Origin: Candidatus Heimdallarchaeota archaeon | GTDB taxonomy: Archaea; Asgardarchaeota; Heimdallarchaeia; JABLTI01 | Assembly (NCBI GenBank): GCA_018238155.1 | Contig: JABCTZ010000022.1 | Location: forward strand, 1 to 64,000 | Length of the DNA: 64,000 nt | Direction of reading: 5' to 3' | Shown: positions 9,783 to 53,627 of the stretch, one piece after another | Layout: each line of letters starts with the position of its first letter | Position numbering within the stretch: the stretch's first letter is position 1 | Made by a program: the position numbers and the translations under genes | Notes under the pieces: generated by a model | Told to the model about the DNA's origin: nothing | The model's database searches: none | What the model saw: the letters and a program-made list of their open reading frames with translations, nothing else

Positions 9783-9815
9783 GAAAATGAGAGCGTAGGG
9801 GGATTTGAACCCCCG
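9783..9815 (-). repeat. Copy 4 of the tRNA-Lys 3' end
   Basis: gaaaatgagagcgtagggggatttgaacccccg: 33 nt, 1 mismatch. Confidence 0.92.
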
Positions 9816-10650: not shown

Positions 10651-10684
10651 GAAAATGAGGGCATAGGGGGACATGAACCCCCGA
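10651..10684 (-). repeat. Copy 3 of the tRNA-Lys 3' end
   Basis: gaaaatgagggcatagggggacatgaacccccga: 34 nt, 3 mismatches. Begins immediately after the PIN gene stop. Confidence 0.9.
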
Positions 10685-11514: not shown

Positions 11515-11553
11515 GAAAATGAGGGCGTAGGGGGATTTGAACCCCCGACCTTT
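11515..11553 (-). repeat. Copy 2 of the tRNA-Lys 3' end (perfect, 39 nt)
   Basis: Identical to 14016-14054. Confidence 0.96.
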
Positions 11554-12436: not shown

Positions 12437-12473
12437 GAAAATGAGTGCGTAGGGGGATTTGAACCCCCGACCT
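12437..12473 (-). repeat. Copy 1 of the tRNA-Lys 3' end
   Basis: gaaaatgagtgcgtagggggatttgaacccccgacct: 37 nt, 1 mismatch. Confidence 0.94.
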
Positions 12474-13886: not shown

Positions 13887-14022
13887 AGAGTTGAATAAGC
13901 CACACACACGCACCATTCTACGATATGGAAAATGGAGTGTTCATAGTAGTAAATGGAGAGGACAGAAATGAGCCAATAAAAATGAAAAGATGGATGAATA
14001 AAGAAAAGAAAAAAGGAAAATG

Positions 14023-14158
14023 AGGGCGTAGGGGGATTTGAACCCCCGACCTTTATCCGATAAGAGAGTACTTCTCTTTCTCTAAGGATGTTTCCGATTG
14101 GAGATTTCTTCTCTTTTTCTTAAGAGTCCTCCGCTCTGCCTGTCTGAGCCATACGCCC
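14023..14158 (-). tRNA. tRNA-Lys(CTT) with two 31-nt introns (37/38: 14090-14120; 43/44: 14053-14083)
   Basis: Acceptor GGGCGTA/TACGCCC, D arm GCTC/GAGC, anticodon arm GAGGA-CT-CTT-A|A-TCCTT, variable loop AGGTC, T arm GGGGG-TTCAAAT-CCCCC. Both introns have BHB-like junctions. Confidence 0.92.
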
Positions 14159-14411
14159 GTGTTTTTTTCTGTATTTCTTTTGCTGTTTCTTTTATTTTTT
14201 AAATGTTCCCTTTGTTAGTATTTTTCTTTTTTTGTTTCCTTTTCTTCCATCTATCTCCTCATTTTTATTTAGTCTTCTCTCTCTTCACTATCTAATACAC
14301 TGAATTTTCCTTAATTTATTTAATAATAAGCTGTCAATTATTGACAAGATTAATACTTCCATTCCAAGAGTTTTTTTAAGTAAAAAACGAATAGTATTAC
14401 TGTGAGGATAT

Positions 14412-51914: not shown

Positions 51915-53627
51915 TTAGTATGCACGCTCCTTAAGCTCGAAGAGACCTAGTGTTACAGGCTTTGTCTTCATTACTAGATTCTCTTTGTCTCGAGAGACCA
52001 GAGAATGTACAAGATACTTTTCATCATTTCTTTTAGGAAAATCTGTTCGATAGTGTGCCCCTCTGCTTTCTTCTCGCCAAAGAGCACTAAAAGCTGTTAC
52101 CTCTGCTATATCGATCATATTTCGTAATTCAAGCAATCGTATTAAGCCAAAGTTGAATACTCTATCATCTGTATCAAATTGCACGGATTTGAATTCTTTT
52201 TGTAATTTTTGGAGAGTGGTAACTGCATATTGCAATTTACTCACCTCTCTATACACGCCCACATTTTTATCCAATGTTTCTTTCATAACCAATCGAATCT
52301 CAACTGGTTTATTTCCGGTATTCTCTTTCCATTGCTTGAACAGGTTTTCTACCATATCCAAGGTTTGTTCTTCAGCTTTTAAGACAACTTCAGAAGATAA
52401 TTTCTTTTTCTTACCTCCTTTCAAAATAACTCTGGAAACGTATCGCCCAAAAACAACTGTTTCCAAAAGGGAGTTTCCTCCCAATCTATTTGCTCCATGT
52501 ACTGAAATACAGGAAGTTTCACCAATTGAATATAACCCATTCATTGGAGTTTCACCAAAATCTCCTTTGTATTTAGAAGCTATACCACCCATTGAATAGT
52601 GTTGAGCGGGTTGAACAGGAATTGGTTTTTCAATGGGGTCAACACCGGCAAAAAACATCGATATTTCTCTAATACCTGGCAACCGTTCCATGATTTTCTC
52701 TTTTCCAAGGCGAGTAAGATCAAGATGAACATAACCATCTTCAAATGCTCTACCTTCTATTATTTCAGTTTCAATTGCTCGTGAAACAATATCTCTTGGT
52801 GCTAATTCCATTGCTTTAGCAGCAACTTTACTCATGAAGCGTTCTCCATCCTTATTGAAGAGCAAACCACCTTCACCTCGGGCACCTTCAGTCATTAGAA
52901 TATTTGTTCCTAAGAGTGTTGTTGGATGAAATTGAACAAACTCACAATCTTGCATTGGAATTCCTGCACGAAAAGCAGCACCTAACCCATCACCAGTATT
53001 TATAATTGCATTTGTTGATCGTTTGTAAATGCGACCAAAACCACCAGTAGCTAAAACAACAATCTCGGATCTAAAAATAACCAATTCACCAGTAGCCATA
53101 TTCATTGTAATTATACCGGCAATTTGATTATCGACTTTAATAAGATCAATCAAAAAAAACTCATCGTAAAATTTTACTTCCTTACGAACACATTGTTCGT
53201 ATAAAGTATGTAATAAAACATGACCTGTTCGATCTCCTGCATAACAAGTCCTTGGAAAACCCGCCCCACCAAATGGACGCTGTGCAATAAGTCCGGAATC
53301 TAATCTAGAAAACGGTGCACCCATACTTTCAAGCTCGATGACAATTTTCGGAGCTTCTTCTGCGAGAAACATTGCAGCATCTTGGTCAGCTAAGTAGTCC
53401 GAACCGTAAACAGTATCATAAGCATGACGTTTTGGCTCATCATCTTTACCTGTAGGAGTATTAGCTAATGCAGCATTTATCCCCCCTTGAGCCGCTCCAG
53501 AATGACTTCTTAGTGGATGAACCTTGCTGATAACAGCTGCATTCCACTTGCCTGCTAGCTCAAAGGCAACTCTCAAACCGCTAAGACCACCTCCAACGAT
53601 TACAACATCAAATTCTTGTACATTCAA
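51915..53627 (-). CDS. sdhA: Succinate dehydrogenase/fumarate reductase flavoprotein
   Basis: [44 protein letters not shown]. Confidence 0.96.

What the first reader, a model, noticed from the sequence alone, without database searches (positions are those of the whole stretch)
14053..14120. Twin 31-nt tRNA introns, 24/31 identical, separated by a 6-nt exon
Seen (minus strand): intron 1 AGAAAAAGAGAAGAAATCTCCAATCGGAAAC at canonical 37/38 and intron 2 AGAGAAAGAGAAGTACTCTCTTATCGGATAA at 43/44, flanking the exon ATCCTT. Intron 2 ends in GGAT, which pairs with ATCC to form its own BHB central helix. Established: multi-intron tRNAs and intron transposition are known mainly from Thermoproteales. Inference: intron copying within one gene, probably with ordered splicing because the two motifs overlap.
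Basis: partly seen in the sequence, partly recalled or inferred. Interest (0 to 1): 0.72.

Follow-up and report, generated by a model that had tools for sequence, protein, structure and literature searches.

The report
Twin copied introns in tRNA-Lys gene
The only lysine tRNA(CUU) gene of this Heimdall-group Asgard archaeon carries two 31-base tRNA-type introns six bases apart, and the second is a diverged copy of the first: a rare case where both donor and copy of such an intron are visible, in a lineage where the way these introns arrive is unknown.

Summary
Observation confirmed. Window 14023-14158 (minus strand) is a tRNA-Lys(CUU) gene. It has a 31-nt insert at 37/38 (I1, 14090-14120), a 6-nt exon (14084-14089) and a 31-nt insert at 43/44 (I2, 14053-14083).

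- **Similarity:** I1 and I2 match at 24/31 without gaps. No other of 8.16 million genome positions matches I2 at 23 or more.
- **Source family:** after I1, I2's best matches are the canonical Lys(CUU) introns of congeners. No other intron of this genome comes close.
- **Relatives:** congeners have the same gene with one intron (G007, G002, G008) or none (G004). I2 is an exact 31-nt gap in all of them.
- **Splicing motif:** I2 sits in a relaxed bulge-helix-bulge motif with a perfect 4-bp central helix. I1's motif has 3 of 4 pairs.
- **Enzymes:** the genome encodes an alpha/beta EndA pair with the crenarchaeal-type L1 loop, and RtcB.
- **Landing site:** of 63 possible sites, 43/44 best mimics the canonical 5' splice-site context.

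The two motifs share exon-2 bases, so they exclude each other. Folding does not settle the splicing order. Splicing itself is untested.

Multi-intron Asgard tRNAs and intron transposition in Thermoproteales are already published. Copying within one gene in Asgard was not found in the literature I searched. This scan earlier noted twin tRNA-type introns in a TBP gene of another Asgard genome; I did not check that note.

The parts
14023..14158 (-). tRNA-Lys(CUU) gene with two introns (136 nt); single copy in the assembly
   Evidence: Rfam RF00005 45.5 bits. ARAGORN calls Lys(ctt) cleanly once both inserts are removed. There is no second 5' half in the genome.
14121..14158 (-). Exon 1: acceptor 5' strand, D arm, anticodon-stem 5' strand and anticodon loop up to position 37
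14090..14120 (-). Intron 1 (31 nt) at the canonical 37/38 site. It is orthologous to the intron of congeners. Its hBHBh' motif has 3 of 4 central pairs (one G-U, and a C32 x A mismatch).
   Evidence: Alignment A1, intron alignment, pair listing
14084..14089 (-). Exon 2 (ATCCTT, tRNA positions 38-43). It is the 3' strand of the anticodon stem. Its first four bases are also the 5' strand of intron 2's central helix.
14053..14083 (-). Intron 2 (31 nt) at 43/44, a diverged copy of intron 1 (24/31). Relaxed HBh' motif: GGAT (14058-14055) pairs perfectly with ATCC (14089-14086), with 3-nt bulges at both junctions, a 2-bp h' helix and a 5-bp hairpin.
14023..14052 (-). Exon 3: variable loop, T arm, acceptor 3' strand and discriminator U. 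CCA is not encoded.
14195..14213 (-). Conserved purine-rich box plus a TTTAAAAAA box about 45 nt upstream of the mature 5' end; likely BRE/TATA promoter
   Evidence: Conserved upstream of the Lys(CUU) genes of G000, G004, G005 (both copies), G007 and G011 (alignment A2). That it is a promoter is inferred.
14001..14020 (-). T-rich trailer, a likely archaeal terminator
   Evidence: Read; function inferred

Best explanation
The gene is a functional tRNA-Lys(CUU) gene interrupted by two paralogous bulge-helix-bulge introns. I1 is the ancestral canonical intron at 37/38. I2 is a copy of that intron, or of its immediate ancestor, placed exactly between positions 43 and 44, six bases downstream. The copy was spliceable on arrival. 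The exon bases 3 to 6 nt upstream of the new site (ATCC) pair with the intron's own 3' segment (GGAA, now GGAT), just as the anticodon-loop bases do at the old site. One later A-to-T change made the new central helix perfect. Both introns are predicted to be cut by the genome's alpha/beta EndA, which carries the L1 loop linked to broad substrate range. The exons would then be joined by RtcB. Exon 2 serves both I1's outer helix (the anticodon stem) and I2's central helix, so the two motifs cannot form at once and removal must be sequential. Shown: the gene structure, the paralogy, the motifs, the enzymes and the I2-free alleles in relatives. Inferred: actual splicing, the order of removal and the copying route.
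For: Gene and boundaries. I2 is an exact 31-nt gap in seven related sequences; G004 has no intron, and G007, G002 and G008 have only the 37/38 intron. Paralogy: 24/31 identity, 0 of 200,000 shuffles reach it, and it is unique among 8.16 million genome positions. I2's local alignment score is 18 with I1, 12-16 with the canonical Lys(CUU) introns of congeners G003, G005, G002 and G008 (11 for G007), and 8 or less with every other intron of this genome. Structure is preserved: of the 7 differences only one lies in a paired segment, and it turns A38 x A into A38-U; another extends the hairpin (hypergeometric P = 0.033). Site logic: 43/44 is the single best of 63 sites (5 of 6 pairs) for I1's 3' segment in helix / 3-nt bulge / helix geometry. 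Enzymes: a catalytic EndA alpha with the GKP...KP loop shared with S. tokodaii and A. pernix EndA, a His-less beta paralogue, and RtcB. The role of this loop in cutting relaxed motifs, and its presence in Asgard, are from PMC5829648. Need and expression: the only Lys(CUU) gene found, with a conserved promoter-like box. Other multi-intron tRNAs occur in the same genome.
Against: There are no RNA data, so splicing of either intron is unproven. I2 lacks the outer helix h (relaxed HBh'). I1's central helix has only 3 pairs, and ViennaRNA gives it a probability of about 0.001, because a competing GGAGG/UCUCC helix dominates. I2 shares T21 and T22 with the introns of G002 and G003 rather than with I1. 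The donor may therefore have been an ancestral or foreign allele rather than today's I1. The closest relative that carries an I1-like intron (G005) has a truncated gene, so the age of I2 cannot be bracketed. This is a single assembly from a MAG (90.7% complete, 5.9% contamination).
Confidence: 0.78

Rival explanations
1. DNA-level origin. A small tandem duplication or template switch copied the intron together with exon 2, using the short TTAG-like microhomology at both junctions. A later deletion removed the duplicated exon copy, leaving what looks like a precise intron insertion.
For: The two copies are head to tail, 37 nt apart and on the same strand. Both 5' junctions read pyrimidine-T-(T/A) | A-G. 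An earlier, unchecked note of this scan (e1-5394245) reports a D-loop intron that looks born by tandem duplication in another Asgard genome. The 2026 census found reverse-transcriptase genes rare in Asgard (bioRxiv 10.64898/2026.10.13.758758).
Against: A tandem duplication of intron plus exon 2 predicts a second ATCCTT, and none is present. The similarity starts and stops exactly at the splice junctions and both copies are exactly 31 nt. The intermediate with a duplicated exon 2 would be a non-functional form of the only Lys(CUU) gene.
Confidence: 0.15
2. The gene is decaying or is not processed as proposed. Segment 2 is not removed, being either an oversized variable arm or a dead insert, and the tRNA is non-functional or is replaced by wobble reading through tRNA-Lys(UUU).
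For: Nothing shows expression or splicing. I2's motif lacks the outer helix. A tRNA-Lys(UUU) gene exists on contig C11. The encoded 3' end lacks CCA, unlike several relatives.
Against: It is the only Lys(CUU) gene found. All stems of the spliced tRNA are intact and the promoter-like box is conserved. Substitutions between I1 and I2 avoid paired positions, and one improves the new helix, which argues for continued selection for splicing. A 36-nt variable arm is unknown for a class I tRNA (general knowledge).
Confidence: 0.05
3. The resemblance of I1 and I2 is chance or convergence. It would be produced by A/G-rich low-complexity composition plus shared BHB constraints.
For: Both introns are purine-rich in a 33% GC genome. 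One unrelated genomic site also reaches 24/31 against I1.
Against: That is 1-2 chance hits in 8.16 million positions, against a hit 37 nt away, in register with the splice sites and of equal length. No other intron of this genome resembles them. No other multi-intron tRNA gene here shows internal repeats above the shuffled level.
Confidence: 0.02

Closest known systems
Transposed BHB introns of Thermoproteales tRNA genes (Fujishima et al. 2010, Mol Biol Evol 27:2233; summarised in PMC4090602 and PMC4033280)
   Same: [quoted passage not shown] They are taken as evidence that an intron was copied to a new site able to form the splicing motif. The host has an alpha/beta EndA with the specific loop.
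   Different: There the copies lie in different tRNA genes and isoacceptors of Crenarchaeota. Here donor and copy sit 6 nt apart in one gene of a Heimdall-group Asgard archaeon, with overlapping motifs. I could not read the primary paper, so I cannot exclude that it lists a within-gene pair.
Multi-intron tRNA genes of Asgard archaea (Kaneta et al. 2018, PMC5829648; Valentin-Alvarado et al. 2024, PMC11291895; Goswami et al. 2026, bioRxiv 10.64898/2026.10.13.758758)
   Same: Asgard tRNA genes carry several short introns, many at non-canonical sites including the variable region. The introns sit at BHB motifs, and an alpha/beta EndA with the L1 loop is present. Gains are frequent and lineage-specific.
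   Different: [quoted passage not shown] It found almost none in Asgard (1.5% against 28.3% in Thermoproteales) and called the arrival route open. A within-gene pair falls outside that test. Heimdallarchaeia were described there as having a low burden.
Canonical 37/38 intron of tRNA-Lys(CUU) in congeners (G002, G003, G007, G008 and the G005 fragment)
   Same: Same gene, same length class (29-32 nt), same 5' AGA start and same hairpin; the TCGGA-type 3' segment is shared with G003 only and differs in G002, G008 and G007. The C32 x A mismatch next to the 3' bulge recurs in G003 and G007 (my reading of the sequences); the G002/G008 intron would pair C32-G there.
   Different: None of them has a second copy at 43/44. 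Their extra introns, where present, are unrelated in sequence and lie in the D loop (G003) or T loop (G011, G005).
Multi-intron nuclear tRNA genes of Cyanidioschyzon merolae (PMC3728597, PMC9602550)
   Same: Several BHB-type introns occur in one pre-tRNA, which raises the question of the order of removal.
   Different: It is a eukaryote, the introns are not reported as copies of each other, and there is no relatedness to this locus.

Membership tests
Archaeal BHB (bulge-helix-bulge) tRNA intron | Removing the insert restores a standard cloverleaf tRNA | tested here: met
   ARAGORN gives a 75-nt tRNA-Lys(ctt) with all stems intact after removal of both inserts. Rfam treats both as insertions. 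The intron-free G004 allele aligns exon for exon.
Archaeal BHB (bulge-helix-bulge) tRNA intron | Both splice sites lie in 3-nt bulges separated by a 4-bp helix | tested here: met
   I2 has four Watson-Crick pairs (ATCC/GGAT) between bulges TT|A and AA|A. I1 has three of four pairs (U-A, C-G, U-G, plus C32 x A), so it is relaxed.
Archaeal BHB (bulge-helix-bulge) tRNA intron | Flanking helices h and h' (strict hBHBh' form) | tested here: not met
   This fails for I2: h' is only 2 bp plus a hairpin, and the outer helix h is absent (at most 1 bp). I2 is therefore the relaxed HBh' form. I1 has h (the anticodon stem, 5 bp) and a 2-bp h'. Relaxed forms are accepted substrates of loop-bearing alpha/beta EndA (PMC5829648).
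Archaeal BHB (bulge-helix-bulge) tRNA intron | The host encodes a splicing endonuclease able to cut non-canonical motifs, and an RtcB ligase | tested here: met
   There are two PF01974 paralogues. The alpha paralogue has Tyr/His/Lys and the GKP..KP loop, aligned to 2CV8 and 3P1Z_B. The beta paralogue lacks the His. RtcB scores 572 bits. Activity was not assayed.
Archaeal BHB (bulge-helix-bulge) tRNA intron | The intron is actually excised from the transcript | not testable with these tools
Transposed (paralogous) BHB introns in the sense of Fujishima 2010 | Significant sequence similarity between introns at different tRNA positions in one genome | tested here: met
   24/31 identity. The empirical rate of such a match is about 1-2 per 8 million positions; shuffles give 0 of 200,000.
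Transposed (paralogous) BHB introns in the sense of Fujishima 2010 | The copies lie in different tRNA genes or isoacceptors | tested here: not met
   Both copies are in the same gene. No other tRNA intron of the genome resembles them (score 8 or less for I2 and 12 or less for I1, against 18 for the I1/I2 pair).
Transposed (paralogous) BHB introns in the sense of Fujishima 2010 | Close relatives have the recipient site empty (a recent gain) | tested here: met
   The 43/44 site is uninterrupted in G002, G003, G004, G007, G008 and G011 and in the intact G005 gene. No other 37/38 + 43/44 allele turned up in the genome or metagenome collections.

The most novel reading that the evidence does not exclude
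The excised canonical intron acted in trans as its own guide. Its 3' segment (TCGGAA) pairs with tRNA positions 38-41 and 45-46 and loops out 42-44 as a 3-nt bulge, a mimic of the canonical 5' splice site. EndA then cut the tRNA at 43/44, RtcB ligated the intron in (reverse splicing), and the product was fixed in DNA. This locus would then be a footprint of an RNA-level, self-targeting route of BHB intron gain in the archaeal lineage closest to eukaryotes.
Probability: 0.15. Interest if true: 0.8.

Novelty: new variant of a known kind. Interest (0 to 1): 0.5.

Why it matters
How protein-spliced (BHB) introns reach new sites is unsolved. Copying between genes was inferred for Thermoproteales. 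A 2026 census of Asgard tRNA genes found no general arrival route.

At this locus the donor family, the copy, the empty site in relatives and the pairing that makes the new site spliceable can all be read at once. It shows that an intron can spread within its own gene to the site that best imitates its original splice-site context. It also gives a small, well-defined substrate (136 nt, two overlapping motifs) for testing three things with Asgard EndA and RtcB: the order of splicing, the risk of exon skipping, and reverse splicing.

It is a single case and computational only, so it is a lead rather than a rule.

Tried and rejected
- **ARAGORN defaults:** it finds no tRNA in the window. With introns allowed it merges both inserts into one 56-nt 'intron', so it cannot define the boundaries. 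I used relatives instead.
- **Other twin-intron alleles:** a gapped pattern search of genome contigs and metagenome contigs gave 0 hits. A second pattern found only G005 and one chance coding hit.
- **3' half of the G005 fragment:** two patterns found nothing. G005 instead has a separate intact gene, so it cannot date I2.
- **Family-wide tRNA listing:** the Rfam search was truncated before the low-scoring multi-intron genes. I therefore ran no systematic survey for within-gene intron pairs in relatives.
- **Thermodynamic ordering:** the I2 motif conformer lies 1.5 kcal/mol above the MFE and the I1 motif 4.5 above it. I2's helix has a probability of 0.09 in the full precursor and 0.99 after I1 removal. 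I1's central helix stays near 0.001. No order can be read from this.
- **Rejected readings:** I2 as a variable arm, I2 derived from the integrated cassettes (they lack any intron sequence), I1 as a copy of I2 (I1 is orthologous to congeners' introns), and assembly duplication (the copies are only 77% identical).
- **Literature gaps:** the primary papers Fujishima 2010 and Sugahara 2007 were not held.

Full report
**What is there**

Rfam's tRNA model matches window 14023-14158 on the minus strand at 45.5 bits, over the 29-bit threshold. It leaves two inserts unaligned, one after the anticodon and one in the variable region. The minus strand reads as follows:
- exon 1: 14158-14121
- I1: 14120-14090, 31 nt
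- exon 2: ATCCTT, 14089-14084, tRNA positions 38-43
- I2: 14083-14053, 31 nt
- exon 3: 14052-14023

With both inserts removed, ARAGORN draws a standard 75-nt tRNA-Lys(CUU) with every stem intact. With either insert left in, it finds nothing unless introns are allowed.

The host is a 4.08-Mb, 33% GC assembly of 46 contigs. A congener carries the record title Candidatus Heimdallarchaeota.

**Is the similarity real?**

I1 and I2 agree at 24 of 31 positions with no gap.
- None of 200,000 shuffles of I1 reached 24; the maximum was 21.
- I scanned all 8.16 million positions of the genome on both strands. I1 is the only site matching I2 at 23 or more. With I1 as query, I2 and one unrelated site reach 24.
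- The partner lies 37 nt away, on the same strand, has the same length and is in register with the splice junctions. Chance is therefore excluded for practical purposes.
- No other intron of this genome resembles either copy: local alignment scores are 8 or less for I2 and 12 or less for I1, against 18 for the pair.
- None of six other multi-intron tRNA genes tested here has an internal repeat above the shuffled level.

**Boundaries from relatives, independent of any motif**

A search of 40 related genomes and alignment A1 show the same gene in several forms:
- G004: no intron.
- G007, G002, G008: only the 37/38 intron.
- G003: a D-loop intron plus the 37/38 intron.
- G011 (another genus): the 37/38 intron plus a T-loop intron.
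- G005: an intact copy with a T-loop intron only.

I2 is an exact 31-nt gap between T43 and position 44 in all of them. Alignment alone allows three registers, because I2 and exon 3 both start with AG. The motif described below selects 43/44. Pattern scans of the genome and metagenome collections found no other allele with inserts at both 37/38 and 43/44.

**Where I2 comes from**

After I1, I2's best matches are the canonical Lys(CUU) introns of congeners. Scores are 16 for G003, 14 for G005 and G002, 12 for G008 and 11 for G007. Identities are 21/31 with G003 and 18/31 with G002. I2 is thus a member of this gene's own canonical intron family.

The pattern of shared bases is mosaic. I2 shares its 5' half with I1 and the G005 fragment, but T21 and T22 with G002 and G003. 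I1 shares CCAATC with the G005 fragment. The I1/I2 identity (77%) equals that between the orthologous introns of G002 and G003. The copy is therefore not recent. The donor was probably an ancestor of today's I1, although an allele from another strain cannot be excluded.

**Splicing motifs**

- **I2:** intron positions -6 to -3 (GGAT) form four Watson-Crick pairs with exon-2 ATCC. The junctions lie in the bulges TT|A and AA|A. Inside, a 2-bp h' helix closes a 5-bp hairpin. An outer helix is missing, so this is the relaxed HBh' form.
- **I1:** the anticodon stem is the outer helix. The central helix has U-A, C-G and U-G pairs plus a C32 x A mismatch. By my reading of the sequences, the introns of G003 and G007 show the same mismatch, whereas the G002/G008 intron would pair C32 with G.
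- **Differences between I1 and I2:** they fall at intron positions 4, 14, 16, 21, 22, 29 and 31. Only position 29 lies in a paired segment, and there A-to-T converts A38 x A into A38-U. Position 21 adds a pair to the hairpin. Finding at most one of seven changes among the 16 paired positions has P = 0.033. This fits selection to keep both copies spliceable.

**Enzymes and need**

The genome has two EndA paralogues.
- One (197 aa) aligns with the catalytic subunits of S. tokodaii and A. pernix EndA. It includes the catalytic Tyr, His and Lys and the GKP...KP loop.
- The other lacks the His.

Kaneta et al. (PMC5829648) report that Asgard archaea have the alpha/beta type with the L1 loop, the feature tied to cleavage of relaxed motifs. 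RtcB is also present.

This is the only Lys(CUU) gene found. A Lys(UUU) gene with two non-canonical introns lies on contig C11. A purine-rich box plus TTTAAAAAA box about 45 nt upstream is conserved across six related genes.

**Why 43/44?**

I asked where in the mature tRNA the 3' segment of I1 (TCGGAA) could pair in the helix / 3-nt bulge / helix geometry of a 5' splice site. Of 63 sites, 43/44 is the single best, with 5 of 6 pairs. The exon context ATCC-TTA-GG imitates the canonical CTCT-TAA-GA. An unchanged I1 copy at 43/44 would have three Watson-Crick central pairs, better than at its home site.

This fits either of two readings: selection (only spliceable insertions survive), or targeting (the intron RNA guides its own reinsertion). 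The data cannot tell these apart.

A tandem duplication of intron plus exon 2 is less likely. No second ATCCTT exists, and the similarity ends exactly at the junctions.

**Order of splicing**

Exon-2 bases 39-41 belong both to the anticodon stem (I1's outer helix) and to I2's central helix, so the two full motifs exclude each other. Folding gives the following:

| Quantity | Value |
|---|---|
| Minimum free energy (MFE) of the full precursor | -44.9 kcal/mol |
| Conformer with the I2 motif | -43.4 kcal/mol |
| Conformer with the I1 motif | -40.4 kcal/mol |
| I2 central helix probability, full precursor | 0.09 |
| I2 central helix probability, after I1 removal | 0.99 |
| Anticodon stem probability while I2 is present | 0.05 or less |
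| I1 central helix probability | about 0.001 |

The I1 helix stays that low because GGAGG pairs with UCUCC inside I1. No order follows from this, and only RNA data can decide.

The 5' site of I1 and the 3' site of I2 could also pair with each other as well as I1's own sites do. That combination predicts an exon-2-skipped by-product, which is worth looking for.

**Comparison with what is known**

- Multi-intron tRNA genes and non-canonical introns are published for Asgard archaea (PMC5829648, PMC11291895, bioRxiv 10.64898/2026.10.13.758758).
- Copying of BHB introns between tRNA genes is published for Thermoproteales (Fujishima 2010, as summarised in PMC4090602 and PMC4033280).
- The 2026 census found almost no intron families shared between tRNA types in Asgard and left the arrival route open. 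Its test could not see a pair within one gene.

This locus is therefore a new variant of a known kind: a within-gene copy in a Heimdall-group genome, with donor family, copy, empty site and site logic all visible. An unchecked note of this scan reports twin tRNA-type introns in a TBP gene of another Asgard genome. If that holds, copying of such introns to look-alike sites may recur.

**Limits**

- The evidence comes from one MAG.
- There are no RNA data.
- The primary Thermoproteales papers could not be read.
- No systematic survey of relatives was possible, because the listing was truncated.

Noticed in passing
window 12437-12473, 11515-11553, about 10651-10684, 9783-9815 (minus strand): Copies of the tRNA 3' part (from position 44 to the trailer CATTTTC) recur downstream of the gene, as expected for att repeats of serially integrated cassettes. 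The identity starts at or within 2 nt of the I2 insertion site. The copy at 12473 is preceded by ATCTT, which resembles exon 2 read across an I2-free junction. That element's att arm may therefore derive from an allele without I2; with only 5 nt, this could be chance.
   Followed up: partly
L002 (G005 contig C84, about 14112-14172, minus) and L040:53-170: The congener G005 (Ca. Heimdallarchaeota MAG 12F4_9) has a 5' half of tRNA-Lys(CUU) plus the first 24 nt of an I1-like intron, followed by unrelated coding DNA. About 14 kb away on the opposite strand lies an intact Lys(CUU) gene with only a T-loop intron and the same downstream flank as in this window. It is either a truncated remnant or a rearrangement. 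No matching 3' half was found.
   Followed up: partly
Alignment A1 (loci L003-L008, L040): Intron content of one orthologous tRNA gene turns over fast within a genus: none (G004), 37/38 only (G007, G002, G008), D loop + 37/38 (G003), T loop only (G005), 37/38 + 43/44 (this genome), and 37/38 + T loop in the sister genus (G011).
   Followed up: partly
G000 contigs: C11 about 52,800-53,000 (minus); C15:176704-176874; C27:544-676; C17:19555-19699; C41:241560-241698: Further multi-intron tRNA genes occur in the same genome, several missed by the Rfam search and by ARAGORN. Examples are Lys(UUU) with D-loop and T-arm inserts, Phe(GAA) with D-loop and 37/38 inserts, and a 172-nt gene with probably three inserts. 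None shows similarity between its own introns.
   Followed up: partly
window 14021-14030 (minus): This gene ends ...GCCC-T-CA followed by a T run and has no encoded CCA. G004, G005, G007 and G011 do encode CCA. The ending is identical to that of the downstream att copies, so the present 3' end may have been supplied by an integrating element.
   Followed up: no
window 14100-14132 (minus): Inside I1 a UCUCC stretch pairs with GGAGG of the anticodon-stem 5' strand, and an AAGAG stretch pairs with the anticodon loop CUCUU. This competitor structure dominates the predicted ensemble (probability about 0.9) and would hide the I1 splicing motif. Its role, if any, is unknown.
   Followed up: partly
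window 14053-14125 (minus): Both introns share their 5' AGA and 3' ATCGGA segments. The 5' bulge of I1 could therefore pair with the 3' segment of I2 as well as with its own, which would excise exon 2 along with both introns. This is a predicted fidelity problem for the twin arrangement.
   Followed up: no
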